Shown one piece after another: positions 23,988-34,247 of a DNA stretch of 35,752 bases. The notes under the pieces were generated by a model that saw nothing but the letters and a program-made list of their open reading frames with translations, was not told where the DNA came from and ran no database searches. Origin of the DNA: an uncultured bacterium. Lineage in GTDB: Bacteria; Cyanobacteriota; Vampirovibrionia; Gastranaerophilales; Gastranaerophilaceae. The stretch covers positions 1-35,752 of the forward strand of contig CALAWF010000027.1 of NCBI GenBank assembly GCA_937894665.1. The letters run 5' to 3'. Within the stretch, counting starts at the first letter, position 1. Every line of letters begins with the position of its first letter. A program made the position numbers and the translations under genes.

Positions 23988-24992
23988 TTGAAAAACTCAA
24001 AAGTCAAACCAATGACAAAAGAACAAATTCTAATTTCTATAGATAGATTAACAAGGTTCAAAAGTACCGAAGTAAAATATTTAAGAGTTTTTCGAGATAT
24101 TTTAACAAATAATTTAATCACCCCAAAATTCAAAAAGTCCGAATTGGAACAGATGAATTATGAAGAACTAAAAAATTGGGCAGAATTTGTTATAAACTAT
24201 TCACTTCAAGAAATGGGAGAAGATTTAGACGAAGATTATATAATTAATCAAAAATTATATAATTATGAAAAATCAGTATTTATTTTTGGTAAAGATGTTG
24301 AAAACTTACTAAAAAATAAAATTAATTATAAGGCATGCTTAAGTTTAATAGAAGAAAACGCACCTAAGAATTTGCAATGGCTAAAAATATTGTCCCAAGG
24401 AAATGATGTTGAATTTCGCCAGAAAAAAGCATTAAGATTTCCCGTAGAAAAAGTTGTAATAGCAGAAGGAGCAACAGAAGAAACATTACTTCCGGAATTT
24501 GGAAAACATTGCGAATTCGATTTTGATAAAGAGGGAATTTACGTCCTTTCTGCCGGAGGAAAAAATCAAGTTGTTAAATTATATTATAGCCTTTCTGAAA
24601 TATTGAGATTACCTATCTTTGTACTTTTAGACAAAGACGCAAGCGAAAATCTTGAAGAAATTAAACCTAAACTTAGACCTTGTGATAAAATTCATTTGTT
24701 AAAATGCGGAGAATTTGAAGATTTATTGCCAATTGACTTAGTATTAAGAACATTGGAATATGAATTAAAAAACATTTCGATACTAGAAAAAGAAAAATTA
24801 AATGAAGATATTCCAAGAGTTCAATTTTTGGAAGAAGTTTTCAAAACTCGAGGCATGCACGAATTTAAAAAAGTAGAATTTGCTCAAATGGTAAAATTAA
24901 ACATCAAAACAGATGCAGATATTTCACCTGAAATCCGTGATATTATTGAAGAAATAAGAAAAGCAAAATTAAATATAAAAAAATTGGGATGA
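23988..24992 (+). CDS. standalone OLD-family TOPRIM-domain protein
   Basis: VEKVVIAEGATEETLLPEF (TOPRIM Glu), LSAGGKNQV and FVLLDKDAS (DxD) lie in the C-terminal half, with FEDLLP after them. The N-terminal ~150 aa are helical with no ATPase motifs. The track start is TTG preceded by AAAGAGG. An in-frame ATG lies at 24012. Confidence 0.8.
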   Translation: MKNSKVKPMTKEQILISIDRLTRFKSTEVKYLRVFRDILTNNLITPKFKKSELEQMNYEELKNWAEFVINYSLQEMGEDLDEDYIINQKLYNYEKSVFIFGKDVENLLKNKINYKACLSLIEENAPKNLQWLKILSQGNDVEFRQKKALRFPVEKVVIAEGATEETLLPEFGKHCEFDFDKEGIYVLSAGGKNQVVKLYYSLSEILRLPIFVLLDKDASENLEEIKPKLRPCDKIHLLKCGEFEDLLPIDLVLRTLEYELKNISILEKEKLNEDIPRVQFLEEVFKTRGMHEFKKVEFAQMVKLNIKTDADISPEIRDIIEEIRKAKLNIKKLG

Positions 24993-25049: not shown

Positions 25050-25122
25050 GCCCCCATCGTCTAGAGGCCTAGGACAACACCCTTTCACGGTGTAGACAGC
25101 GATTCGAATTCGCTTGGGGGTA
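25050..25122 (+). tRNA. trnE: tRNA-Glu (anticodon UUC), CCA not encoded
   Basis: Hand-folded cloverleaf. Acceptor GCCCCCA/TGGGGGT (G1-U72 wobble). D stem GTCT/GGAC. Anticodon stem ACACC/GGTGT with loop CT-TTC-AC. T arm AGCGA-TTCGAAT-TCGCT. Discriminator A. The gene is followed by TTT rather than CCA. Confidence 0.9.
25082..25122 (+). repeat. attL: 41-bp direct repeat (tRNA-Glu from the anticodon loop to the discriminator)
   Basis: ctttcacggtgtagacagcgattcgaattcgcttgggggta is identical at 25082-25122 and 33070-33110. Flanking bases differ on both sides. Confidence 0.9.
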
Positions 25123-25140
25123 TTTTATAAAAATAAAGAT

Positions 25141-25172
25141 ATGACTAGCTTTGAGGCTAGTTATTTTTTTTG
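25141..25172. terminator. bidirectional intrinsic terminator (tRNA-Glu on plus, int on minus)
   Basis: Stem ATGACTAGC/GCTAGTTAT with a 6-nt loop. It is followed by a T8 run on the plus strand and by a T-rich run on the minus strand. Confidence 0.6.
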
Positions 25173-25205
25173 TTTAGTTTTCAAATCCTCCCTAAAATTA
25201 ACTAA

Positions 25206-25226
25206 ATGGTAACAACTATGGTAACA
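25206..25226 (+). repeat. tandem ATGGTAACA doublet (candidate integrase arm-type sites, attL arm)
   Basis: atggtaaca at 25206-25214 and 25218-25226. The same 9-mer doublet recurs at 32934-32953 in the same orientation. Confidence 0.6.
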
Positions 25227-25232
25227 AAAATT

Positions 25233-26363
25233 TTAATCCAGTTTTTGACTACCAAAAATTTTCTTATCCAGTAATGCGTTCGCTTGGACTGGTAACTCAT
25301 GTAAAATTTGCGTATAAACTTTTGACGTAACGATAGTATTACTATGTCCAACTTGTCTAGATATATACTCTAGAGGCACACCACACAAGTGCATTATATC
25401 TACATACTGTCCTCTTAGGTCATGCACTCGACAATAGTCTTCATCATACCCACATTCGATTAATAAAGCTCGGAACTTACGTTCAACCCACTTTGCTCCG
25501 ACAATATTTCCTTGTGAGGTTCTAAATAAAAAATCGTCATTACTAACCACAAATTTATCAATATGCCACTGAATAATATTAAGCACCTGTTCCGATATAT
25601 CAACAATTCTAGTTGACGCTTCTTTCTTAGTTCTGTTCTTTAATTGTCCTTTAGTAAACTGCTTGTTAATAAATATTCGCCTATTTGGTATATCTATATC
25701 GCTAATTTTTAAGGCTGAATATTCTCCAACCCTTGCACCCGTAAGAGTTGCAAGTACAAACAGACAGTAATATTCAGGGAACTTTTTCTTGCAAACTGAT
25801 ATAAGCTCAGCTAATTCCTTGGTCGAAAACCGATTTCGTAGCTTTTGGGGAATTGACTTATTACTCATTCCTACGAATGGATTAGTTCTCACTTGTTCCA
25901 ATTTCATAGCATAGTTGAATGAGGCTTTTAATACTTTGACACACATGTTATAGGCGTGCGGACTTGCTTTTTTGTTGTGCATACTTCTCTCCCATGCCTG
26001 TATCAATGTGGGTGTGATTTTAGTAACTTTAATATCTTTGAAAAATGATAAGTGATTACGTAACACTCCCTCATAGTTTGATACTGTGCCGAGAGAATAT
26101 TCTCCCTCATTCTTTGCGAAATCGAGAAATAATTTGACAACGTCATATACAGTAGCTTCGTTGTTTAATTCTATTTTGTTTGCTTCAAAGTTGTTTAGAA
26201 ACTCTCTCTCGGCTTTTTCGGCTTCTTTTTTGGTCAAGAATGTTCCAACAACTTTTTGCTTTCGCTCTGAGTTGCCGAACCTGTCATATTTACCTGTTTC
26301 GACCCTCACAACAGAACGCCAACGAATAGCACCGCTGGGATTTGTTCGCTTTTGAACCACCAT
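25233..26363 (-). CDS. int: tyrosine-type site-specific integrase (phage integrase family)
   Basis: The N-terminal arm-type DNA-binding segment (GAIRWRSVVRVETGKYDRFGNSERKQKVVGTFLTKKEAEKAEREF) comes first. Catalytic residues are TGARVGE (Arg), HDLRGQY (HxxR) and GHSNTIVTSKVYTQ (His...Tyr). Confidence 0.93.
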   Translation of the reverse strand: MVVQKRTNPSGAIRWRSVVRVETGKYDRFGNSERKQKVVGTFLTKKEAEKAEREFLNNFEANKIELNNEATVYDVVKLFLDFAKNEGEYSLGTVSNYEGVLRNHLSFFKDIKVTKITPTLIQAWERSMHNKKASPHAYNMCVKVLKASFNYAMKLEQVRTNPFVGMSNKSIPQKLRNRFSTKELAELISVCKKKFPEYYCLFVLATLTGARVGEYSALKISDIDIPNRRIFINKQFTKGQLKNRTKKEASTRIVDISEQVLNIIQWHIDKFVVSNDDFLFRTSQGNIVGAKWVERKFRALLIECGYDEDYCRVHDLRGQYVDIMHLCGVPLEYISRQVGHSNTIVTSKVYTQILHELPVQANALLDKKIFGSQKLD

Positions 26364-26584
26364 TACTGCACCTCAGGCTGATGATAGTGTGCTTCTTTGA
26401 ATTTAATTATTTCATCTTTAACCCAAAGTTTTTTACCGCCGTAATTGACGAAACCAATACTTTTTTCGTTCAACATTAATTTTCGGGCATAGTGGTATTT
26501 TAAACCGAGAATTTCTGCAACCTGTTTCAAAGTAATAAGCACTTTTTCACCAATGTTACTGTTTGTTATCGTGTTAACTGCCAT
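26363..26584 (-). CDS. xis: excisionase-family/MerR-like HTH DNA-binding protein
   Basis: 73 aa. LTLKQVAEILGLKYHYARKLM...GGKKLWVKDEIIKF fits the excisionase-type winged HTH. Its stop overlaps the int ATG (TAATG), indicating translational coupling. Confidence 0.8.
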   Translation of the reverse strand: MAVNTITNSNIGEKVLITLKQVAEILGLKYHYARKLMLNEKSIGFVNYGGKKLWVKDEIIKFKEAHYHQPEVQ

Positions 26585-26695
26585 ATTTTGTCTCCTTTAT
26601 TGTTGTCAATATTTTCTATTTTTCTTAACGGTGTTCATTATTTATTTACATTTACTGTAATTAATATACAACAAAAATTTTTATTGTCAACTATA

Positions 26696-26712
26696 AATGA
26701 ACAATGTTCATT
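26696..26712. promoter_or_regulatory. 17-bp palindromic operator candidate in the xis/int - XRE divergent region
   Basis: AATGAACA-A-TGTTCATT is a perfect palindrome. An extra half-site TGTTCATT lies at 26632-26639. A TTGCCA-N16-TAAAGT promoter-like element lies immediately downstream, before the XRE gene. Confidence 0.5.
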
Positions 26713-26758
26713 AATTTGCCACAATATTTTTTTGTGTTAAAGTTAAAGTGGAGGTTTT

Positions 26759-27151
26759 ATGTCAATACGGAAACGAATAACAAATACAGACTATGATAGT
26801 CTTTCTGAAAACATCGGTAAAAAATTCAAGCAGTACAGACTTAAAGCTGGATTATCTTTACGTGATATTTACAGAGAGGAACAGATTAGTATTGCCTTAA
26901 TATCAGATTTGGAAGCAGGAAAGAAGCTACCTAGAATGGAAACGTTAGTTCGCCTATGCAACAAAGTTGGCATGCCTTTAGACGAAGTTTTTAGCTCTAG
27001 AATTACTCCCTCTCGAGTTGATTTAATTGCTGGAGGGCAGAGTACTGAGGATAAAATGAGAACAATCCTGTTGAATGACAATATTCCAACCAGCCTTGCT
27101 GATGAACTAGTCAAATACTTTGAGTTTTTAAAGACAAAAGAAAATTTGTAA
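26759..27151 (+). CDS. XRE-family HTH transcriptional regulator (cI-like island repressor candidate)
   Basis: HTH_XRE segment LKAGLSLRDIYREEQISIALISDLEAGKKLPRMETLVRLCNKVGMPLDEVF. GGAGG RBS. Divergent from xis-int. Confidence 0.85.
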   Translation: MSIRKRITNTDYDSLSENIGKKFKQYRLKAGLSLRDIYREEQISIALISDLEAGKKLPRMETLVRLCNKVGMPLDEVFSSRITPSRVDLIAGGQSTEDKMRTILLNDNIPTSLADELVKYFEFLKTKENL

Positions 27152-27197
27152 CATGCACTTGAAAAGGAAACTTAATCATGTTATAATAGGAGTAGAA

Positions 27198-27530
27198 ATG
27201 GATAAACAATATACAGCAGTGCTTACCGATGAAGCAGATGAACAGTTGCTTGAGCTATCCTCGGAGGACAGAGAAACTATACTTGAAGCAATTCGTGCAT
27301 TTGAATTAATCGGAAGAGGTTATAAAAACCTCAATACACTGGGCGACAAGCTCTTTGAAATAAAACCGCAAGGGGTAAGAGCATACTTCATGTACCACCC
27401 CAAACAACGAAAGATTATAATAGTAGGTTTTATATGCTTAAAAACTACAAAGAAAGCTCCGCCACGATATAAAGAACAGGCACGCAGAAATGTTGCAAAA
27501 TACCTTGAACAGGAGGCTCAAAATGGCTAG
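27198..27530 (+). CDS. RelE/ParE-superfamily toxin, Gp49/HigB-like
   Basis: Start at MDKQYT, preceded by AGGAG. LFEIKPQGVRAYFMYHPKQRKIIIVGFICLKTTKKAPP follows the Gp49-like pattern (L.E.r...G.yRv.y......i.ll..f.KK....P). Confidence 0.7.
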   Translation: MDKQYTAVLTDEADEQLLELSSEDRETILEAIRAFELIGRGYKNLNTLGDKLFEIKPQGVRAYFMYHPKQRKIIIVGFICLKTTKKAPPRYKEQARRNVAKYLEQEAQNG

Positions 27531-27828
27531 AACACTTGATGAAATCCTTAAGGATAGAAAAATAGTTACCCAAGAACAAGCTGACAGAATTGAGAAAAAT
27601 GCAATCACTGAAGCTGAGCATTATTGGGGTGGAAAACGTGCTAATTCAGGTAGAAAAGCAAAAATTGCAGATAGCCCACGAAATAAGCAGATTAAGGTAT
27701 CTGACGGGGTAAAAGTTGCAATCCAGTATGCCTATGCCAATGGTATTGTTATAAGTATCGATGACATTAAATTACTCCAATATGCAAAAGAAACAGGTAT
27801 TACTTTAGATAAATTGCAGCATGCTTAA
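27523..27828 (+). CDS. putative antitoxin/DNA-binding partner of the Gp49-like toxin
   Basis: Start at MARTLDE, preceded by AGGAGG and overlapping the toxin stop by 8 nt. It carries a basic GGKRANSGRKAK tract followed by a beta-strand-like KQIKVSDGVKVAIQ. No canonical XRE HTH is visible. Confidence 0.55.
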   Translation: MARTLDEILKDRKIVTQEQADRIEKNAITEAEHYWGGKRANSGRKAKIADSPRNKQIKVSDGVKVAIQYAYANGIVISIDDIKLLQYAKETGITLDKLQHA

Positions 27829-27855
27829 TCATAACAAAAGACATAATTACACTAG

Positions 27856-27890
27856 AAACTCACTTTTCCTATAGAAAAGTGAGTTTTTGA
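27856..27890 (+). terminator. intrinsic terminator after the toxin module
   Basis: 13-bp stem AAACTCACTTTTC/GAAAAGTGAGTTT with loop CTATA, followed by TTGA within a T-rich run. Confidence 0.7.
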
Positions 27891-27940
27891 TAAATCCTAA
27901 AATCTCTTTCTAGACTTATAATACAGCCTGTTTTTAGGAG

Positions 27941-27960
27941 AGAAATGTCAACACATTTCT
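27941..27960. repeat. 20-bp palindrome AGAAATGT-CAAC-ACATTTCT, with a related inverted copy (ATGTTGACAT) near 27979-27988
   Basis: Read directly. It lies upstream of the small coiled-coil gene and second recombinase. A TTGACA-N17-AATAAT promoter-like element overlaps the downstream copy. Confidence 0.6.
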
Positions 27961-28045
27961 TTATAAACTCACTCCAATATGTTGACATAGTGAGTAAATG
28001 GAGTAATAATAGAGATATAGAGAACGCAAAAACAGGAGATACAAA

Positions 28046-28321
28046 ATGAAAAATTCAGACATCAGGAACACAGTTGAAGAACTTCAAAACCTTTACGCTC
28101 AAGCTGACGAATTAAAAGCTCAAATCACTGCAAGAGAAGCGATGATTAAAGAAGAAATGGAAGCTAGAGAAACAGAAACACTCGATTTGGGTAATGTTAT
28201 CATAAGATTTACTTCAATTATTTCTAATAGATTTGACACTACTAACTTCAAAAAGCAATATTCAGACCTATACAACTCGTTCATTAAACAGGTAGCAAGT
28301 AGAAGATTTTCAATAGCATAG
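28046..28321 (+). CDS. small coiled-coil protein, unknown function
   Basis: 91 aa. N-terminal coiled coil (VEELQNLYAQADELKAQITAREAMIKEEMEARE), then a beta-rich tail (LGNVIIRFTSIISNRFDTTNFKKQYSDLY). AGGAG RBS. Confidence 0.75.
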   Translation: MKNSDIRNTVEELQNLYAQADELKAQITAREAMIKEEMEARETETLDLGNVIIRFTSIISNRFDTTNFKKQYSDLYNSFIKQVASRRFSIA

Positions 28322-28355
28322 GGGTAAAAGCCCCTATGGGGGCGGGAGATTAGAC

Positions 28356-29036
28356 ATGGAAAGAACAACTGACACATATACTACAACTAGGTATGGAAAA
28401 GAAGTAGAAATACACAAACCAAGCGGAAGTACACCTATTACTGAACAGAGTAAATTATATGAGATAAAAAAAGCTCTAACTAAGGGAATTATGAACGAAA
28501 AAGGAAAAGTAATCATCAAGGCTCCACATGAAAAATATTACATACTTTGGAGTTTATCTCTTGGTCTTGGTTTCAGAATTTCGGATACATTAAAATTGAC
28601 TGTGAAAGATGTTACTTCTTCTAATGCAGAAATAACCGAGCAAAAAACAGGCAAAAGGCGTATGGTAACTGTACCCGCAGGGTTACAACCTGTGATTAAT
28701 GAATACATTAGAAAATACGACCTAAAAGAAAACGACAAGCTGATTTTTGCCAACAGAAAAGACGGGACTAAAGACAAAGCTATCGACAAATCTCAGGCAT
28801 ATAGAAAATTGCGAGAGATAGTAGAAGCTGTTTGTCCTGATGTGCAATTTTCTAACCATACTACGAGAAAGACTTGGGCTTACTTCTTATACTTAAAAGA
28901 GGACAAGAATATAGCTATTGTACAAAAAGCCCTTAATCACACGTCTAGCCTTACGACCTGCGATTATATAGGATTATCGAAAAAGGAATTGAAAGAAACT
29001 CTGATTAAATATGACCCAATGTCGGGAGAATGGTAG
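28356..29036 (+). CDS. small tyrosine recombinase, catalytic domain only
   Basis: Catalytic residues GLGFRISD (Arg), EQKTGKRR (Lys region), NHTTRKTWAY (HxxR) and LNHTSSLTTCDYIG (His...Tyr). At 226 aa it has no recognisable SAM-like core-binding domain. GGGAG RBS. Confidence 0.82.
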   Translation: MERTTDTYTTTRYGKEVEIHKPSGSTPITEQSKLYEIKKALTKGIMNEKGKVIIKAPHEKYYILWSLSLGLGFRISDTLKLTVKDVTSSNAEITEQKTGKRRMVTVPAGLQPVINEYIRKYDLKENDKLIFANRKDGTKDKAIDKSQAYRKLREIVEAVCPDVQFSNHTTRKTWAYFLYLKEDKNIAIVQKALNHTSSLTTCDYIGLSKKELKETLIKYDPMSGEW

Positions 29037-29038
29037 AG

Positions 29039-29383
29039 TTAGTCTTTTAAACTATCCATTCCCTTTTGGGCAGTCTTTAATAGGTTATAGTAAAATTCAA
29101 TTTCTTGCTCATTTGCATTACTTAGTATCTGCATAGCTTTAATAAAAAATGGGTTGTCATTAGTTGATACTTTAGATAAATCAACACCAACATCTTCAAG
29201 TTTTAAATCTAGTGCTCTTAGAATTTTATTTAATGTTTCGAAATTTGGGTGAAAACGCCCTGTTTCTATCTTTGAAATATGCTTTTCATGAATATTCGCC
29301 ATTTCCGCTAACTTTGCTTGCGAAAGCCCTCGAGATATCCTAATTTGTTTTAATTTATCTCCAAAAGTATTGTCTTTGCTCAT
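29039..29383 (-). CDS. XRE-family HTH transcriptional regulator
   Basis: FGDKLKQIRISRGLSQAKLAEMANIHEKHISKIETGRFHPNFETLNKILRALDLKLEDV is a canonical HTH_XRE. Divergent from the zinc-ribbon membrane gene pair. Confidence 0.88.
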   Translation of the reverse strand: MSKDNTFGDKLKQIRISRGLSQAKLAEMANIHEKHISKIETGRFHPNFETLNKILRALDLKLEDVGVDLSKVSTNDNPFFIKAMQILSNANEQEIEFYYNLLKTAQKGMDSLKD

Positions 29384-29434
29384 CCTTATACTCCTCTGTT
29401 ATCTTAAAGAGTACACATAGCAAATTAAACAAAT

Positions 29435-29482
29435 CTTATTGATATTATCTGTTTACAATTTGTATCAACTTATTGATATTAT
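29435..29482 (+). promoter_or_regulatory. two 14-bp direct repeats CTTATTGATATTAT (candidate operators/promoter elements)
   Basis: Identical copies at 29435-29448 and 29469-29482, 34 bp centre to centre, in the 146-bp divergent intergenic region. Each contains TTGATA. Confidence 0.55.
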
Positions 29483-29529
29483 ATCTTTTTCATGATTTTA
29501 TCTATTTAGAATTGTAATAGGAGGAAAGT

Positions 29530-29946
29530 ATGGCACAAAACTCTTGGTTTAGAACAGGTATTTTATATTTTGTTGATACTTGGTTAGAATATACCGTATT
29601 TATTTTATTTGCTGGGCTAATTTATGTGTCATGGCAATTTTTAAAAGATGAAAATACAATATGGCTAGGACTTCTTATCCTTTGTGTTGGGATATTAACA
29701 TTGTCACTTATTTCATGGCTAATCTTTAGTTTAATTGATATTAGGTACTTATTAAAAACGATATCAGAAAACACCAAGAGAGAAATTGATATAAATGCTA
29801 TAACAAAACAAGAGTCCAAGACATTACCTCCAGTTCCAGCAGAAGATGAAAAATATTGTCCATACTGCAATTCAATAATAAAAAAGAACGCTAAAAAATG
29901 TAGATTTTGTAATATGTGGTTAGGTAATAATGGAGGTAACGCATAA
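29530..29946 (+). CDS. membrane protein with a C-terminal zinc ribbon
   Basis: Three hydrophobic helices, then CPYCNSIIKKNAKKCRFCNMW (CxxC-N10-CxxC). GGAGGA RBS. Confidence 0.8.
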   Translation: MAQNSWFRTGILYFVDTWLEYTVFILFAGLIYVSWQFLKDENTIWLGLLILCVGILTLSLISWLIFSLIDIRYLLKTISENTKREIDINAITKQESKTLPPVPAEDEKYCPYCNSIIKKNAKKCRFCNMWLGNNGGNA

Positions 29947-30767
29947 TGAAATGTCCTTACTGTCATGAAGAAGTTGAAAAAAATTCTATTATATGTTCTG
30001 TTTGTGGAGAAAAAATTCCCACAATATATAGTATTTTTGACTCAATAAAAACTCAACTTCCCAAAATCCGAAAAATATTCACTATATGTATGTTTAGTAT
30101 ATTATTTGTAATTTGCATTTTTTTTCTAGTTAATTTCATGATTAAAACTATAGACAGTAATAAACTTACAGATACAGGGTATAAATCAATAGAGTTAAGT
30201 TATACTCCTGTGGGAAGTTTTTATGACGTTCTTTCTTCCCTTGGACAGCAAGAACAAGATTTGATAACATTTTTCAAAAAAAGTAAAAAAGAACAAGATA
30301 ATTCAAAATTATTTGCAATATTCATGGATAATGTGAATAAAACACGTCAATATTTTACGGATAACTTCAATTATGAAAAAAGTTTAAGTGAACAAGGTAT
30401 TATGACTGCAACAAAAATTACAGACGCAAATCCAAACCCAATAAGAATAACCAGCCCTGCTATAAATATTCTTAAGGTCGGTTTTAGGGGAGCTGTCGGT
30501 TTAATGATAGATTATGATTATGTACTAAAAACATATACTCCATACTTGACAGACGACTGGAAAGAATACTTTGAATTGTCAAAGCAATTGGACAATGATT
30601 TACAAATTGCAGAATATAACGATGACGGAATAAGTTTCGTACGGGCTTATTCCAAATGGGCAAACAAATGGAAAGAGTTTATAAAAAAATATCCTGACTT
30701 TCACATGAATGGTGATATATATGAAATGATACAGGAGTATGAGGGATTTGTTAATAATTATTATTAA
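29946..30767 (+). CDS. N-terminal zinc-ribbon, single-pass membrane protein with an unknown C-terminal domain
   Basis: KCPYCHEEVEKNSIICSVCGEKI (CxxC-N11-CxxC), a TM helix (IFTICMFSILFVICIFFLVNFMI) and a ~200-aa extracytoplasmic domain. TAATG overlap with the upstream gene. Confidence 0.8.
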   Translation: MKCPYCHEEVEKNSIICSVCGEKIPTIYSIFDSIKTQLPKIRKIFTICMFSILFVICIFFLVNFMIKTIDSNKLTDTGYKSIELSYTPVGSFYDVLSSLGQQEQDLITFFKKSKKEQDNSKLFAIFMDNVNKTRQYFTDNFNYEKSLSEQGIMTATKITDANPNPIRITSPAINILKVGFRGAVGLMIDYDYVLKTYTPYLTDDWKEYFELSKQLDNDLQIAEYNDDGISFVRAYSKWANKWKEFIKKYPDFHMNGDIYEMIQEYEGFVNNYY

Positions 30768-30825
30768 TCAGAATTAAGTTGAGCCCCAAATATTAAGATT
30801 TTGAAAAAAGTTGTATGTTTTAGCA

Positions 30826-31021
30826 CCTGAGCCCTCAAAACCTGTTCATGCCAGTTTAAATTGTCGTTTGAAAGCTGAAACGAGGCTGACAGCGAGTAGC
30901 GGCTCAGCTAAGAGTGAAAGCGAGAAGTCAGCAAAAGACTTCAAAGCAGAACGGTTTCAGTCTTGGATGAGTGGCGTGAGCCACCTCAGGAAAGAGTAAC
31001 AACTGAAAACGGGCTCTTTTT
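30826..31021 (+). ncRNA. candidate structured non-coding RNA, family not recognised
   Basis: A 200-nt block (30821-31020) is 95/200 G+C by my count, in an AT-rich context. It has several perfect local hairpins, including a GNRA-capped one (GUGGC-GUGA-GCCAC, 30971-30984), and long-range complementarities. It ends in GGGCUC plus a U5 run. The only ORF across it (30811..30999) starts at TTG, lacks an RBS and has an unprotein-like composition. Confidence 0.4.
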
Positions 31022-31074
31022 GTCCATTTTTCTTTTATTATTCTACTAATTTCTTCAAATTCTGCAAAAGAAAA

Positions 31075-31100
31075 ACCCCGCTACTATTACGTAACGGGGT
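31075..31100 (-). terminator. intrinsic terminator of the minus-strand four-gene operon
   Basis: ACCCCG/CGGGGT stem with a 14-nt loop, followed on the minus strand by TTTTTCTTTT. It lies 25 nt after the stop at 31125. Confidence 0.55.
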
Positions 31101-31124
31101 AAATAATTACATGGAAGATTTCAA

Positions 31125-31409
31125 TTATAATAATTCACATTTATGCAGAATATCCGTTATTCGTTCAAGTTGTAAGTCATTCAAGCCCTCAGCTCTGAGT
31201 GCACTCTCAACCTTATGTATAACCTTACCTTTAAATTCCGCATTTATCACAATGTCTGGTCTATTTCTGTACCTGTACAAAGGCATGTGTACCTGATAAA
31301 TACAGTCTATTACAATACCTTTGTATGCACTCGGAATTGCACTAACCTTTACTTTATTTATCAACTTAATTTGTAATGATTTCAAACAACCTATATCGAT
31401 GTTACTCAT
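31125..31409 (-). CDS. hypothetical protein (94 aa), last gene of the operon
   Basis: ATGA overlap with the upstream gene. It has a weak, unverified resemblance to Mor/C-type activators (QVHMPLYRY...RPDIVINAEFKGK...LNDLQLERITDIL). Confidence 0.7.
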   Translation of the reverse strand: MSNIDIGCLKSLQIKLINKVKVSAIPSAYKGIVIDCIYQVHMPLYRYRNRPDIVINAEFKGKVIHKVESALRAEGLNDLQLERITDILHKCELL

Positions 31410-31723
31410 TTAATTATTACTCCTATCTCCTCACGTATTGCCCTCTGTAACAGTGATAACACCTGTTTTCGCCAAATACCTCTTGGATTATCTCTTTCAA
31501 TTTTATCAGATACGGATTTGATGAGGATAAAGCAATACCGCTCCACCTCAACATCAACCCCCGCACCGCTTTTGACACTTTCTCGAATGATAAAGGAGTT
31601 CAGAACATCGAGCAGATAATCTCGGGATTTACCTTTTCGATACCTGCGAACCCTCGCTATAACAGCAGAAACAGCGCTATTAACAAGAAATTTACTTGCT
31701 ATCACTTTATTACAGCTCCTCAA
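31406..31723 (-). CDS. hypothetical protein (about 100 aa)
   Basis: The track start is a non-ATG codon overlapping the upstream gene by 14 nt. A GTG at 31705 preceded by GAGGAG is an alternative. The protein is basic and helical (VIARVRRYRKGKSRDYLL...RGIWRKQVLSLLQRAIRE). No family recognised. Confidence 0.65.
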   Translation of the reverse strand: MRSCNKVIASKFLVNSAVSAVIARVRRYRKGKSRDYLLDVLNSFIIRESVKSGAGVDVEVERYCFILIKSVSDKIERDNPRGIWRKQVLSLLQRAIREEIGVIIK

Positions 31724-32333
31724 TATCTTGGTATTCCCAGTCCTGAATTTCTCGTTTTATCCCTAAGTCGCTCCAATTTAGCGGGTTAGAAACGACTACA
31801 TAACCCATTTTTTCGTCTTTTTCAAAGTACGGTTCAACAGTTTTTCCGTTTCCTTTACCATCGTCAACATCAAGCCACACTTGGCGGAGTAAGCGATTGT
31901 CCTCCCATTTCATGTATTCTTCTGAAATTTCGCCATTGTTGTAATACTTTTGCTCAGGTTCTTTCCACACCTGTTGCAACTTTTCTTCAACAGCCTGCTT
32001 GACGAATTCTTGTACATTTTGGCACTTCGTAAGGTTAAGTGCGATAGCTATTATAACCTCGTCATGTAAAGAAAATGGAATATATGTACGACTAAGTCTT
32101 TCGCTTGGGGTATGCGGTTTGCGAGGATATTCGACATTACGTGGCATGTGTTTTTGATTGAAAGTGCCATCTAGTGCGGAATTGATAATTTCAATCACAC
32201 CACTGCGAATTGACTTAATTTTTCTCCAATTTCGCAATCTAACTAGACGATTATAAGTTGCACTATCAACACTTACAACCTTGTTATTATTGTTTTTTCT
32301 TCTAACATCTGTATATTTGCGTCTTATAGCCAT
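31710..32333 (-). CDS. hypothetical protein (207 aa) with two RHH-like segments and an acidic Trp-rich C-terminus
   Basis: GGAGG RBS lies inside the end of the upstream small ORF. KVVSVDSATYNRLVRLRNWRK...GVIEIINSALDG and RTYIPFSLHDEVIIAIALNLTK...VQEFVKQAVEEKL both look like strand-helix-helix units. The RHH assignment is by eye only. Confidence 0.75.
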   Translation of the reverse strand: MAIRRKYTDVRRKNNNNKVVSVDSATYNRLVRLRNWRKIKSIRSGVIEIINSALDGTFNQKHMPRNVEYPRKPHTPSERLSRTYIPFSLHDEVIIAIALNLTKCQNVQEFVKQAVEEKLQQVWKEPEQKYYNNGEISEEYMKWEDNRLLRQVWLDVDDGKGNGKTVEPYFEKDEKMGYVVVSNPLNWSDLGIKREIQDWEYQDIEEL

Positions 32334-32335
32334 TT

Positions 32336-32494
32336 TTAATTTTCTCCTCCGTTTTGTAATAATTCTGCTAACTTGTCTTTTAAAAGCTCATTTACAAGTG
32401 AGCTTGGGTTTACGTTTAATTTTGCTTTCGCTTCCATTAAGTCCATTAATGTCTGGACTTCGATACTGAATGATTTTGTTACTTTGGGTTTCAT
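32336..32494 (-). CDS. ribbon-helix-helix (CopG/Arc/MetJ-like) small DNA-binding protein, 52 aa
   Basis: Not in the ORF track because it is under 60 aa. Translated by hand as MKPKVTKSFSIEVQTLMDLMEAKAKLNVNPSSLVNELLKDKLAELLQNGGEN. A GGAGAGGAA RBS precedes the ATG at 32494. The stop lies 2 nt before the next ATG. It shows a beta-strand (KSFSIE) plus two-helix pattern. Confidence 0.65.
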   Translation of the reverse strand: MKPKVTKSFSIEVQTLMDLMEAKAKLNVNPSSLVNELLKDKLAELLQNGGEN

Positions 32495-32667
32495 TTCCTC
32501 TCCCTATCTGTTTTCTAGTACATTTTAGCTTTCGCTTTCTATACATAATTTAAACAGGAGAGACAACGAACAATAATAATGACAATAATAATGTTGTGTA
32601 ATCCAGAGGCAAATACACCTAAACCTAATTTTCCCCCTCTTAAAGCCATTCTGAGGGCTGTAGATTT

Positions 32668-32711
32668 AACATTCAAGAATGTTTGACAGAATAAAAAATT
32701 GATATTAAAAC
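32668..32711 (+). promoter_or_regulatory. promoter-like element with an overlapping 16-bp palindrome, reading toward attR
   Basis: AACATTC-AA-GAATGTT (32668-32683) abuts TTGACA (32683-32688), then a 17-nt spacer and TAAAAC (32706-32711). Confidence 0.4.
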
Positions 32712-32933
32712 ATAGATGTAATTATTGATTGCACTAGAAATATAAAAAGGCGGATAGAGGCACTATGAGCGACTTTCTAGCTCTTGCGCATAAAACTCTC
32801 ACAGAAATTTTCCGGAATTTCAAAACCTTTTACCCCACTGTTATTAGGTTAATAGTATCTATTTTTATAAAAACAAACACTACGTCTATATAGAGATTTT
32901 CTACTTTCTCAGAAATTTTTAAAAGCTCTGGAA

Positions 32934-32953
32934 ATGGTAACACAATGGTAACA
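32934..32953 (+). repeat. tandem ATGGTAACA doublet (candidate integrase arm-type sites, attR arm)
   Basis: atggtaaca at 32934-32942 and 32945-32953, about 117-136 bp left of the attR core, in the same orientation as the attL-side doublet. Confidence 0.6.
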
Positions 32954-33069
32954 ATAGCAATTTAATTAATAAAAATTAATCCTATTTATTAAATTAAAAA
33001 ATCAAGATATTATTCACTTTTCGCCACTTCGTCAACTCAGTAAATTATATAAAACAGCCCCGATAAAAA

Positions 33070-33110
33070 CTTTCACGGTGTAGACAGCGATTCGAATTCG
33101 CTTGGGGGTA
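33070..33110 (+). repeat. attR: displaced 3' half of tRNA-Glu (41-bp direct repeat), followed by genomic CCA
   Basis: Identical to 25082-25122. Here the discriminator A is followed by CCA and then the terminator below. This looks like the ancestral tRNA 3' end. Confidence 0.9.
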
Positions 33111-33119
33111 CCATTTAAT

Positions 33120-33146
33120 AAGCCACGTATAGCGTGGCTTTTTTAG
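33120..33146 (+). terminator. intrinsic terminator (ancestral tRNA-Glu terminator)
   Basis: AAGCCACG/CGTGGCTT 8-bp stem with a 5-nt loop (TATAG), followed by a T-run. Confidence 0.7.
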
Positions 33147-33467
33147 TGTTTAATTTTTAAAACATACATTATTATTGTATTTAAGCTAGTGTTAAACGAA
33201 AAATGCTTATTATATCTGCCTTATAGAGCTGTTTATTTTGCTAAAATTTCTAAAAATTTCGTATAGCGGCAACAAAAGTGGTAATAAAAAAAGTGCCTCA
33301 GAAAAATTCTATCATTTGTACAGCTCCCTATAACCCTCTCGTAGTCTAATTCTGGACTGTTGTAAATAAAATTCCGAAGTGGCAACATTAACAATCTTGC
33401 CACTATAAAATGTTAATAATAAAAATAGTCGTAAGCCTGTCATTGATACAGTTTTGAGCAATATCAG

Positions 33468-34247
33468 CTAAAAAAACAAAACTTCACCATCTGCAGGTAT
33501 CAGTAAATTATCTATATTATTATTGTTTTTAAGATGTTCTAAATCTTTTCTTGTAACTGTTAAATGACTTACTGTATCCATGTGGCTTGCAATTACGGTC
33601 GCATTTTTAGAATTTTTTAAAACTTCTTTCAAATCATCAATATTCATAATTAAGCGTTCCCCATTTAATACTGTTGCGGCACAAGCATTAACTACAACTA
33701 CATTTGGAGAATATTTCCTTAAGGCTTCTTTTACTTCTTCACACCAAATCGTATCACCAGCAATATAAAGTGTTTTTTCTACTTTAGCTTTGAAAACAAT
33801 ACCCATTGCATCGTAAGGCATTCCAATAGAATCACATAAAGGTTTTAAAATGTCTCGTTTTCCATGTTGTGTATGAGTTTTGTATAAAGTTATATTTCCA
33901 TAGCTTGTACCTTGTTCTGCTAAAATTTCAACATCTTTAAAACCTTTTGATAATATAAAGTTTCTATCAAATTCTGATTGAACAAAAATTTTAAGATTTT
34001 TATCTATTGCATGTTCTGCATATTCGTCCCAGTGATCAGGGTGAATATGAGTAATGATAACAGCATCGACATCTACAATTTTATCAATAGAAAAAGGTAA
34101 TTCTACTCTCGGTTGTCGAATTTCAGAATTAACTGCTGTTTCAAAACCCGGCATATACTCCTTTGGTCCAAGCCAAGGGTCTATTAAGAATCTTGTATTG
34201 TCGTATTCTATAATTAATGTTGCATTTCTAACTTGAGTAATTTTCAT
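33468..34247 (-). CDS. MBL-fold metallo-hydrolase
   Basis: HxHxDH motif ITHIHPDHWDE plus downstream His/Asp ligand positions (GDTIW, SHMD) at 259 aa. Confidence 0.88.
   Translation of the reverse strand: MKITQVRNATLIIEYDNTRFLIDPWLGPKEYMPGFETAVNSEIRQPRVELPFSIDKIVDVDAVIITHIHPDHWDEYAEHAIDKNLKIFVQSEFDRNFILSKGFKDVEILAEQGTSYGNITLYKTHTQHGKRDILKPLCDSIGMPYDAMGIVFKAKVEKTLYIAGDTIWCEEVKEALRKYSPNVVVVNACAATVLNGERLIMNIDDLKEVLKNSKNATVIASHMDTVSHLTVTRKDLEHLKNNNNIDNLLIPADGEVLFF

What the first reader, a model, noticed from the sequence alone, without database searches (positions are those of the whole stretch)
31125..32494. Four-gene operon of an RHH regulator plus three unplaceable proteins, convergent on the RNA candidate
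The minus-strand genes are tightly coupled. A 52-aa RHH ORF that I found by hand (32494-32336) stops 2 nt before the ATG of a 207-aa protein. That gene overlaps or abuts a ~100-aa basic protein, which has an ATGA overlap with a 94-aa protein. A GC stem plus U-run terminator follows at 31075-31100.

None of the three larger proteins shows a motif I can assign. There is no NTPase, nuclease, protease or TM segment. The 207-aa protein seems to contain two further strand-helix-helix units and an acidic Trp-rich tail. The last gene has only a faint Mor-like look.

A small DNA-binding protein leading a compact unknown operon in island cargo next to an unexplained structured element has three readings. 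It could be an uncharacterised regulatory or interference module, as in phage satellites. It could be a toxin-antitoxin-like module or a defence module. I cannot distinguish between these from sequence.
Basis: partly seen in the sequence, partly recalled or inferred. Interest (0 to 1): 0.7.

Follow-up and report, generated by a model that had tools for sequence, protein, structure and literature searches.

The report
Portable four-gene module with structured flanks
The four small genes are real and always travel together with two conserved non-coding DNA stretches as a 2.2-kb unit, shared by tiny plasmids and several unrelated integrating islands of uncultured gut bacteria; no known family matches it, and it most plausibly prepares the element's DNA for transfer between cells.

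Summary
The operon is real. It has four translationally coupled minus-strand genes: A 32494-32336, B 32333-31710, C 31705-31406 and D 31409-31125. An intrinsic terminator follows at 31100-31066. All four genes are under purifying selection.

None of the four hits Pfam, PHROGs, NCBIfam, PADLOC, PDB sequences, known plasmids or known phages. B has no relatives outside its own clusters among 1.84 billion representative proteins.

The operon is the coding core of a 2.2-kb unit (about 32920-30785). The unit consists of a ~430-nt conserved leader, A-B-C-D, the terminator and a ~230-nt structured block. This unit recurs intact in at least five backbones. These are three circular 5.3-6.1-kb plasmids and four integrase-defined island types, probably in Gastranaerophilales.

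A and B have RHH-like N-termini and swap types, with four non-alignable B tails. C, D, the leader and the block stay conserved.

The block shows strong covariation and folds on the operon strand, so it is not convergent.

Best reading (about 0.35): a relaxase-less DNA-processing or mobilisation module. In this reading the leader is oriT-like, A and B are RHH accessory factors, C and D are unknown adaptors, and the block is a single-strand priming element. TA, defence and satellite readings gain no positive support.

The parts
32495..32920 (-). Conserved non-coding leader of the module. It contains a left boundary box (32884-32920), 17-nt direct repeats ACTYTCWCAGAAATTTT (32795-32811 and 32903-32919), box GGGGTAAAAGG..GAAAATTTCTGTGAG (32794-32836), CCTCTATCCGCCTTTTT (32744-32761) and an AGAATG..TTAAG box (32633-32653).
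   Evidence: It aligns between the islands and plasmids L003, L059 and L064. nhmmer finds it in every element, including the most divergent one, L061.
32570..32593 (-). Tandem 12-mer CATTATTATTGT x2, just upstream of a conserved -10-like box (TAAATT/TATATT, 32544-32554). It is the candidate operator for the RHH proteins A and B.
   Evidence: The repeat was found. This ~100-nt stretch is the part of the leader that changes together with the A/B type (L059 against L003), while the -10-like box is kept in all clades. The operator and promoter roles are inferred.
32336..32494 (-). Gene A: a 52-aa protein with an RHH-like pattern (strand KSFSIE, then two helices). SD GGGAGAGG at 32497-32504.
   Evidence: The ORF is. 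It is conserved as the first gene in all contexts. Ka/Ks is 0.04-0.22. Only sub-threshold CcdA hits were found.
31710..32333 (-). Gene B: a 207-aa protein with an RHH-like N-terminus (VVSVDSATYNRL...), a possible second strand-helix-helix unit, and an acidic Trp/Tyr-rich C-terminus.
   Evidence: The family has 10 clusters and nothing else in 1.84 billion representatives. AF2 gave pLDDT 52. Four non-alignable types (207-212, 185, 168-170 and 206 aa) share only the N-terminal RHH-like unit.
31406..31705 (-). Gene C: a 99-aa basic protein (GTG start) predicted to be a four-helix bundle. Invariant residues include R28, Y30, Y57, K63, S64 and D67.
   Evidence: 42 clusters, including a clade at 40% identity. 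The AF2 model has pLDDT 83.8 and pTM 0.76. Foldseek against PDB and BFVD gave no match below E 0.09.
31125..31409 (-). Gene D: a 94-aa basic protein and the most conserved of the four. It overlaps C by ATGA.
   Evidence: 20 clusters at 82-97% identity plus one at 53%. pN is 0.07-0.13 where pS is 0.6-0.9. There is no hit in PLSDB plasmids, INPHARED phages or IMG/VR.
31066..31100 (-). Intrinsic terminator of the operon (stem 31100-31075 plus T-run).
   Evidence: Found. A hairpin plus T-run is present at the same place, with different stem sequences, in all clades.
30785..31017 (-). Structured non-coding block, co-oriented with the operon. Helices: P0 31002-31008 with 30955-30961; P1 30970-30985; P2 30924-30942; P3 30885-30908; P5 30838-30857. 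Conserved linkers: CGCTTTCAC, TCAGC, AATTTAAAC, CATGAA.
   Evidence: The covariance model finds exactly one copy per element in 16 sources. 91.9% of cells are paired against 74.1% in shuffles. 20 of 29 pairs change on both sides. The covariation score is 0.41 against 0.15 (0 of 500 shuffles). Slid partners pair in 31-51% of cells. G.T 24 against A.C 4 on this strand. There is no Rfam family.
30788..30803 (-). Conserved 15-16-mer at the distal edge of the module. The core AAATCTTAA is invariant across the clades read, and the full motif AAAATCTTAATATTT is kept in most, including the clades where D is only 51-54% identical.
   Evidence: It resembles the left boundary box (GAAAATCTMTRTATAGAC), so the module is bracketed by similar AAAATCT motifs. 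That resemblance is an observation only, and the sequence is AT-rich.

Best explanation
The operon is the protein part of a self-contained 2.2-kb DNA-processing (mobilisation-type) module. Small plasmids and integrative islands of gut Gastranaerophilales-like bacteria share this module.

Proposed mechanism, all inferred:
- The leader acts as an origin-of-transfer-like site and also holds the operon promoter.
- A and the RHH head of B bind type-specific repeats next to that promoter. They autoregulate the operon and build a relaxosome-like nucleoprotein complex.
- B's variable, acidic/aromatic tail recruits partners.
- The two strongly conserved basic helical proteins C and D bind the invariant DNA boxes or link the complex to a helper machine.
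- Nicking and transport are supplied in trans by a helper element, because no relaxase or coupling protein is encoded.
- The strand-specific structured block downstream serves, in single-stranded form, as a priming (sso/ssi-like) element for complementary-strand synthesis.

What is shown: the anatomy, the linkage, the purifying selection, the covariation and the strandedness. What is inferred: every biochemical role.
For: 1. Linkage. Leader, A-B-C-D, terminator and block are kept as one unit in at least five backbones:
- the tRNA-Glu island with Int376;
- circular Rep(HTH_36) plasmids L003 (5307 bp), L059 (5657 bp) and L064;
- the Int367, Int437 and Int328 elements.

2. By elimination. The plasmids already have a Rep, a recombinase and a HigB-like TA pair. 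The islands have Int and Xis instead of Rep. The module is the one function common to both.

3. Non-coding conservation. About 720 nt of non-coding sequence is as conserved as the proteins or more so, which argues for cis-acting sites.

4. Precedents for N-terminal RHH proteins ahead of a DNA-processing locus:
- pLS20 has two RHH auxiliary genes between oriT and the relaxase (PMC5675868).
- PcfF combines an RHH with a C-terminal stalk (PMC6514445).
- Relaxase-less plasmids carrying an oriT plus the RHH factor SmpO are mobilised in trans (PMC8136818).

5. Type swapping. A/B types swap together with about 100 nt around the promoter, while the rest of the leader, C, D and the block stay fixed. 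This is the pattern expected for specificity factors.

6. The block. It has covarying hairpins on one strand only and lies behind a conserved terminator. Single-strand origins have the same properties: they are orientation-specific and fold in the single-stranded state (PMC5703833).
Against: - No relaxase, coupling protein or T4SS gene occurs in any of the elements, and no helper was identified.
- No protein of the module has detectable homology to any relaxosome factor.
- The RHH folds are not established at significance.
- C and D have no counterpart in known relaxosomes.
- No nic-site consensus or RSB/CS-6-type motif was matched.
- T4SS genes are reported as over-represented in Vampirovibrio relative to other Melainabacteria (PMC4451040), so helpers in the host order are unproven.
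- The block could equally be a transcribed RNA.
Confidence: 0.35

Rival explanations
1. This is a regulatory RNA-protein module controlling the element's own life cycle (copy number, excision or maintenance) or its interplay with a helper phage, as in satellites. The block, and perhaps part of the leader, are transcribed structured RNAs. C and D are RNA-binding or transcription factors. A and B are type-specific repressors.
For: - Strand-specific covariation fits an RNA as well as ssDNA.
- A promoter-like TTTGCA-17-TAGAAT lies between the terminator and the block.
- C is a four-helix bundle, a shape used by some RNA-binding proteins such as Rop, but there was only a weak Foldseek row.
- The islands have prophage-like int, xis and cI-type switches.
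- A conserved hairpin of varying sequence lies in the A 5' UTR.
Against: - There is no Rfam family.
- Whole-block folding z-scores are modest on both strands.
- The promoter-like site is not clearly conserved.
- There are no relatives of D, and no copies of the block motif, in IMG/VR or in phage records.
- None of the elements carries capsid, terminase or replication-hijack genes.
Confidence: 0.2
2. This is an autoregulated addiction, toxin-antitoxin or exclusion module. A and B are RHH antitoxins or regulators, and the highly conserved C and/or D is a toxin or effector.
For: - The sub-threshold hits of A and of B N-termini are all to RHH antitoxin families (CcdA, DUF6290, VAPB_antitox).
- Variable upstream partners with conserved downstream proteins, and ATGA coupling, are common in TA loci.
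- The top (non-significant) fold rows for C include four-helix immunity proteins.
Against: - C and D match no toxin family or defence model.
- Residues that look catalytic in D are not kept in the 53% clade.
- B tails of four unrelated types would have to neutralise the same toxin.
- TA loci do not carry about 720 nt of conserved structured flanks.
- The same elements already carry a HigB-like pair.
Confidence: 0.12
3. This is a rolling-circle-type replication module built like pMV158. The leader would be the double-strand origin, A a CopG-like repressor, B the initiator and the block the single-strand origin.
For: The order matches cop-rep replicons with an sso: origin-like leader, small RHH gene, ~200-aa protein, then a strand-specific structured element (PMC5703833). 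The type-specific repeats next to a conserved region recall bind and nic loci, but that comparison rests on my own knowledge and was not tested.
Against: - B has no HUH or Rep family hit.
- The four B types share no catalytic motif.
- The plasmids carry their own Rep-like HTH_36/DnaD_N protein.
- C and D have no place in this scheme.
Confidence: 0.08
4. These are ordinary, unlinked phage regulatory genes (Mor/C, Cro-like) that happen to be adjacent.
For: The genes are small, basic and helical, in an integrase-bearing island.
Against: There are no Mor, C or Cro hits. The genes show strict linkage and order in all contexts, including plasmids. They are absent from phage collections.
Confidence: 0.02

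Closest known systems
pLS20 oriT-aux1-aux2-relaxase region (Bacillus subtilis), PMC5675868
   Same: Two consecutive genes for proteins with an N-terminal RHH motif lie directly downstream of a conserved cis-acting region and act as a DNA-processing unit of a mobile element.
   Different: There is no relaxase gene after them; two unrelated small helical proteins follow instead. There is no sequence similarity. The host is a different phylum. The oriT function of the leader is unproven.
pWBG749-family SmpO and oriT mimics on non-conjugative staphylococcal plasmids, PMC8136818
   Same: Relaxase-less small plasmids carry a cis site plus an RHH specificity factor and rely on a helper in trans. The specificity factor varies while the rest is conserved.
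   Different: SmpO systems are one gene plus about 150 bp. Here there are four genes plus two long conserved flanks, and no helper is known.
PcfF of pCF10 (RHH head plus C-terminal stalk that recruits the relaxase), PMC6514445
   Same: The architecture resembles B: an N-terminal RHH-like unit followed by a partner-binding C-terminal part.
   Different: There is no homology. B tails come in four unrelated types, and the partner is unknown.
pMV158-type cop-rep replicons with single-strand origins (ssoA, ssoU), PMC5703833
   Same: A small RHH-type repressor gene leads the operon. A ~160-300-nt orientation-specific element folds as a single strand.
   Different: There is no HUH initiator and no tested RSB/CS-6 motif. 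The module also sits in integrative islands and in plasmids that have another Rep.
Three-component RHH-regulated TA loci (omega-epsilon-zeta, paaR-paaA-parE; from my own knowledge)
   Same: An RHH regulator leads a compact, multi-gene, autoregulated operon on plasmids.
   Different: There is no recognisable toxin, there are four genes rather than three, and there are long conserved structured flanks.

Membership tests
RHH relaxosome accessory factors with oriT (Aux1/Aux2, SmpO, PcfF, TraY/TraM) | N-terminal ribbon-helix-helix DNA-binding domain | tested here: inconclusive
   The strand-helix-helix pattern is kept in A and at the N-terminus of all four B types. Only sub-threshold Pfam hits to RHH antitoxin families were found. 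The AF2 model of B is low-confidence.
RHH relaxosome accessory factors with oriT (Aux1/Aux2, SmpO, PcfF, TraY/TraM) | Encoded next to a relaxase gene, between oriT and the relaxase | tested here: not met
   No relaxase, MobA, Mob_Pre or Rep_trans domain occurs in any of the elements carrying the module.
RHH relaxosome accessory factors with oriT (Aux1/Aux2, SmpO, PcfF, TraY/TraM) | Sequence or profile homology to a described accessory-factor family | tested here: not met
   There are no hits in Pfam, NCBIfam, PDB sequences or PLSDB.
RHH relaxosome accessory factors with oriT (Aux1/Aux2, SmpO, PcfF, TraY/TraM) | Binds its oriT and is required for transfer | not testable with these tools
   This needs EMSA or footprinting and mobilisation assays.
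Single-strand origin / ssi element | Orientation-specific element that folds as a single strand | tested here: met
   Covariation in 20 of 29 pairs, with 0 of 500 shuffles reaching the score. G.T 24 against A.C 4 on the operon strand. The orientation relative to the operon is the same in all 16 sources. An RNA would give the same result.
Single-strand origin / ssi element | Conserved RSB / CS-6 motifs of ssoA-type origins, and RNAP or primase priming | not tested
   No consensus library was at hand. Priming needs experiments.
Type II toxin-antitoxin system | A toxin of a recognised family or fold | tested here: not met
   C and D have no Pfam, NCBIfam, PADLOC or PDB hit. The C model is a four-helix bundle without a significant match.
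Type II toxin-antitoxin system | Growth arrest by the toxin, relieved by the antitoxin | not testable with these tools
   This needs expression assays.
pMV158-type rolling-circle replicon | HUH (Rep_2-type) initiator | tested here: not met
   B has no Rep hit, and no motif is shared by the four B types.
Mor/C phage transcription activators | Match to the Mor family profile | tested here: not met
   D has no Pfam or PHROG family at E<=1 other than noise.
Known anti-phage defence systems (PADLOC) | Any component matching a defence-system model | tested here: not met
   There are zero families for A, B, C and D.
Rfam RNA families | Block or leader reaching any family's score | tested here: not met
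   Only tRNA-Glu passes at gathering threshold. The permissive scan of 30600-33500 gives chance-level rows only.

The most novel reading that the evidence does not exclude
The module is a previously undescribed kind of nucleoprotein machine. In this reading, two new small helical proteins (C and D) act directly on two structured nucleic-acid elements, with interchangeable RHH specificity subunits. Examples would be a relaxase-independent way of generating, priming or exporting single-stranded DNA, or an RNA-guided or RNA-scaffolded maintenance system. This would be distinct from all known MOB, Rep, TA and defence families.
Probability: 0.25. Interest if true: 0.85.

Novelty: new variant of a known kind. 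Interest (0 to 1): 0.6.

Why it matters
Non-photosynthetic relatives of cyanobacteria in the gut (Gastranaerophilales) are uncultured, and their mobile elements are essentially undescribed.

Here one compact unit makes up about 40% of a 5.3-kb plasmid. The same unit sits in four different integrase-defined islands. It is therefore likely the shared "transfer or maintenance engine" of this mobilome.

The unit is built from four protein families and two structured nucleic-acid elements, none of which has a known relative. Working out its role would give:
- a handle on how DNA moves in this lineage;
- possibly a new class of origin or relaxosome components;
- minimal parts (a 2.2-kb cassette, type-swappable RHH specificity factors) for building genetic tools for these organisms.

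Tried and rejected
- **Family searches.** A-D were scanned against Pfam, PHROGs, NCBIfam and PADLOC with nothing above noise.
- **Profile searches.** Profiles of A, B, C and D against PDB sequences gave chance hits only.
- **B profile.** Against 1.84 billion representatives it found only its own family, plus one repetitive junk protein.
- **AF2 of B.** pLDDT was 52, and its Foldseek result was meaningless as expected.
- **AF2 of C.** The model was good, but PDB and BFVD returned only generic helical bundles.
- **C and D as paralogues.** Rejected by hhalign.
- **B type 1 against type 2.** No homology beyond the N-terminal ~40 residues.
- **Species genomes.** A scan of 185,579 species genomes for B found nothing.
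- **Viral contigs.** The block motif and D were absent from IMG/VR.
- **Known plasmids and phages.** D and A were absent from PLSDB and INPHARED.
- **Metagenome motif scan.** Most of the 33 hits were chance. Only L051 and L059 carry the block.
- **Block as a gene.** A protein-coding reading of the block (the 62-aa plus-strand ORF 30811-30999) was rejected, because the alignment has indels that are not multiples of three and open frames differ between variants.
- **MAFFT-based RNAalifold.** It recovered only two helices. A hand-seeded covariance model was needed.
- **Single-sequence folding.** The z-scores did not discriminate between strands.
- **Relaxase search.** The larger unknown proteins of the related islands gave no relaxase, primase or coupling-protein hit.
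- **HEPN-like Rx5H in D.** Rejected, because it is not kept in the 53% clade.
Full report
**1. What is in the window**

The window is about 32% G+C. A tRNA-Glu gene lies at 25050-25122. It is followed by a 376-aa tyrosine integrase gene on the minus strand.

The last 41 bases of the tRNA (25082-25122) are repeated exactly at 33070-33110. An ~8-kb island therefore occupies about 25123-33110. Its contents, in order, are:
- int and an HTH_17 Xis-like gene;
- a cI-type HTH gene;
- a Gp49/HigB-like pair;
- a 91-aa gene plus a short 226-aa tyrosine recombinase;
- an HTH gene;
- two zinc-ribbon membrane proteins;
- the finding's region, next to attR.

**2. The observation**

The four minus-strand ORFs exist and are tightly coupled. 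They are A 32494-32336 (52 aa), B 32333-31710 (207 aa), C and D 31409-31125 (94 aa).
- A's stop codon is 2 nt from B's ATG.
- C and D overlap by ATGA.
- C is best started at GTG 31705, giving 99 aa, behind GAGGAG. Gene callers place it there in identical contigs, and homologues begin there.
- A terminator-like hairpin with a T-run lies at 31100-31075. It recurs at the same place in all relatives with different stem sequences.

All four are real genes. In pairwise comparisons pN is far below pS, with Ka/Ks 0.04-0.4. This holds for the hand-found 52-aa ORF too. D is the most constrained, with pN 0.07-0.13 where pS is 0.6-0.9.

**3. No known family**

- Pfam, PHROGs, NCBIfam and PADLOC give nothing above noise for A-D.
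- Profiles against all PDB sequences give only chance rows.
- B has 10 clusters among 5.8 billion proteins. A profile search of 1.84 billion representatives finds nothing beyond its own family.
- D has 20 clusters and C has 42.
- Neither D nor A has a relative in PLSDB plasmids. D has none in INPHARED phages or IMG/VR.
- B is absent from 185,579 GTDB species genomes.

The RHH calls rest on limited evidence. There is a conserved strand-helix-helix pattern, and there are sub-threshold hits to RHH antitoxin families. A hits CcdA at E 0.017-0.076. B N-termini hit DUF6290 and VAPB_antitox at E 0.03-0.07.

AF2 of B is poor (pLDDT 52). Its secondary structure is compatible with two strand-helix-helix units followed by helix, hairpin and helix. 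AF2 of C is good (pLDDT 83.8, pTM 0.76) and shows a four-helix bundle. Foldseek finds no match better than E 0.09 in PDB or BFVD. C and D are not paralogues.

**4. The genes are part of a larger portable unit**

Contigs carrying homologues always show the same four genes in the same order. The backbones differ:
- The tRNA-Glu island with Int376, with or without the HTH/zinc-ribbon cassette.
- Circular plasmids L003 (5448-bp contig with a 141-bp terminal overlap, so 5307 bp), L059 (55-bp overlap, 5657 bp) and L064 (127-bp overlap). These carry a Rep-like HTH_36/DnaD_N protein, a recombinase and sometimes a HigB-like pair.
- An Int367/resolvase element (L061).
- An Int437 island of about 10 kb (L069-L072).
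- An Int328/resolvase element (L073).

Nucleotide comparison of the plasmid L003 with the islands shows what they share. The shared unit runs from about 430 nt upstream of A to about 340 nt downstream of D. In the window this is about 32920 to 30785. nhmmer finds both the leader and the downstream block even in L061, where D is only 53% identical.

The nearest integrase relatives (53-57% identity) are in Gastranaerophilales/Melainabacteria MAGs from gut and rumen, and one of them shares flanking synteny. The host assignment is therefore an inference.

**5. Pattern of variation**

A and B are swappable. A comes in diverged but related versions. B comes in four types (207-212, 185, 168-170 and 206 aa). 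The B types share only an N-terminal RHH-like unit, and hhalign sees nothing else.

A and B also reassort with each other. Window against L018 gives A 96%, B 53%, C 75% and D 89% identity.

Between plasmids L003 and L059 the leader, C, D and the block are homologous while A and B are of different types. The breakpoint lies about 100 nt upstream of A's ATG. There the window has a tandem 12-mer (32570-32593), next to a -10-like box that is kept in all clades. This fits A and/or B being type-specific autoregulators. That role is inferred.

All B types carry short acidic/aromatic motifs, such as FDPFDDEDFDE or EIQDWEYQDIEEL. These are candidate docking motifs for the basic proteins C and D. This is also inferred.

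**6. The structured block**

There is no Rfam match. Single-sequence folding is only modestly better than shuffles on either strand. MAFFT-based RNAalifold recovers two helices.

A covariance model seeded with five hand-identified helices finds exactly one copy per element in 16 sources. On its alignment:
- 91.9% of cells pair, against 74.1% in shuffles.
- 20 of 29 pairs change on both sides.
- The covariation score is 0.41 against 0.15, reached by 0 of 500 shuffles.
- Sliding the partners drops pairing to 31-51%.

The alignment is fitted to the model, which inflates these numbers somewhat. However, helices P1-P3 have several fully different stem sequences that are visible by eye.

On the operon strand there are 24 G.T cells against 4 A.C cells. 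The element therefore folds on the operon strand and is co-oriented with the operon, not convergent. Its distal edge carries a motif (AAAATCTTAATATTT) that is kept in nearly all clades, with an invariant core AAATCTTAA.

The plus-strand 62-aa ORF inside the block is not conserved as a frame.

**7. Interpretation**

The small plasmids already encode replication, recombination and TA functions. The islands encode integration instead of replication. The module is what they have in common, and about a third of it is conserved non-coding sequence. This points to a cis-acting DNA (or RNA) processing role shared by elements that must move between cells.

The nearest mechanistic precedents are relaxosome loci:
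- Two N-terminal-RHH auxiliary proteins lie between oriT and the relaxase in pLS20 (PMC5675868).
- PcfF combines an RHH with a stalk (PMC6514445).
- Relaxase-less plasmids are mobilised in trans through an oriT plus the RHH specificity factor SmpO (PMC8136818).

A strand-specific structured element behind the operon behaves like a single-strand origin (PMC5703833). I therefore favour a relaxase-less DNA-processing/mobilisation module, at about 0.35.

The weaknesses are serious:
- There is no relaxase or coupling protein anywhere in these elements.
- No helper was identified.
- There is no homology to any relaxosome protein.
- C and D have no counterpart in known systems.
- T4SS genes are not known to be common in this order (PMC4451040).

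Rivals and their confidences:
- An RNA-protein regulatory module: 0.2.
- A TA or exclusion module: 0.12.
- A cop-rep-sso-type replication module: 0.08.
- Unlinked phage regulators: 0.02.

The remainder is "something not yet imagined".

**8. Verdict**

The three functional readings offered are not supported by positive evidence.

The feature is a genuine, conserved, previously undescribed module of a poorly known mobilome. Its mechanism remains inferential.

Noticed in passing
window 25082-25122 and 33070-33110: An exact 41-bp direct repeat of the 3' end of tRNA-Glu delimits an ~8-kb integrated island (attL/attR). Two TGTTACCATT repeats at 32933-32953 next to attR look like arm-type integrase sites.
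   Followed up: partly
window 28046-29036 (+); L064, L014, L061, L073: A 91-aa protein (weak PHROG hits to the C-terminal part of RecE-like proteins) is paired with a short 184-226-aa tyrosine recombinase that lacks an N-terminal domain. The pair recurs in islands and plasmids. In other elements a serine resolvase takes the recombinase's place. A recombinase gene is almost always the convergent neighbour of the structured block.
   Followed up: partly
window 29039-30767; L073:5868-7639; L069:6325-7926: The HTH plus two zinc-ribbon membrane proteins (138 and 273 aa) form an optional cassette inserted between the recombinase and the block. It is absent in L001, L002, L014 and L068. Homologues of the 273-aa protein (35% identity in L073, 22% in the L069 533-aa protein) accompany the four-gene module in two other island backbones. 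They could be a functional partner or recurrent cargo.
   Followed up: partly
window 32633-32653 (-); leaders of L003, L059, L012, L064, L069, L073, L015, L018: The conserved leader box reads as a 6-codon mini-ORF, ATG-NNN-KTW-AAG-NNN-NNN-TAA (MAFKRG*, MPVKAG*, MRFKVG*, MAFKTD* and others). No Shine-Dalgarno sequence precedes it. In the window itself a 1-nt deletion breaks the frame. It may be a leader peptide or simply a protein-binding site.
   Followed up: no
window 27153-27828 (+): A Gp49/HigB-like toxin gene (Pfam E 7e-7) has an overlapping 112-aa partner. This is a separate TA-like pair inside the same island, and it is also present on plasmids L059 and L064.
   Followed up: partly
L003 (1-5448), L059 (1-5712), L064 (1-6088): These contigs have terminal overlaps equal to the assembler k-mer (141, 55 and 127 bp). 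They are complete circular 5.3-6.0-kb plasmids with a Rep-like HTH_36/DnaD_N protein and a wHTH/coiled-coil/TM protein. This appears to be an undescribed plasmid family of gut Melainabacteria, seen in tens of metagenome contigs.
   Followed up: partly
window 32884-32920 and 30788-30803: Both edges of the 2.2-kb module carry similar AAAATCT(N)3TAT motifs in direct orientation. This might mark recombination sites by which the cassette moves between replicons. The sequence is AT-rich, so chance is not excluded.
   Followed up: no
window 23988-24992 (+): The host gene immediately upstream of the tRNA-Glu integration site encodes an OLD-like TOPRIM protein. The same neighbour is seen in all related loci.
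   Followed up: no
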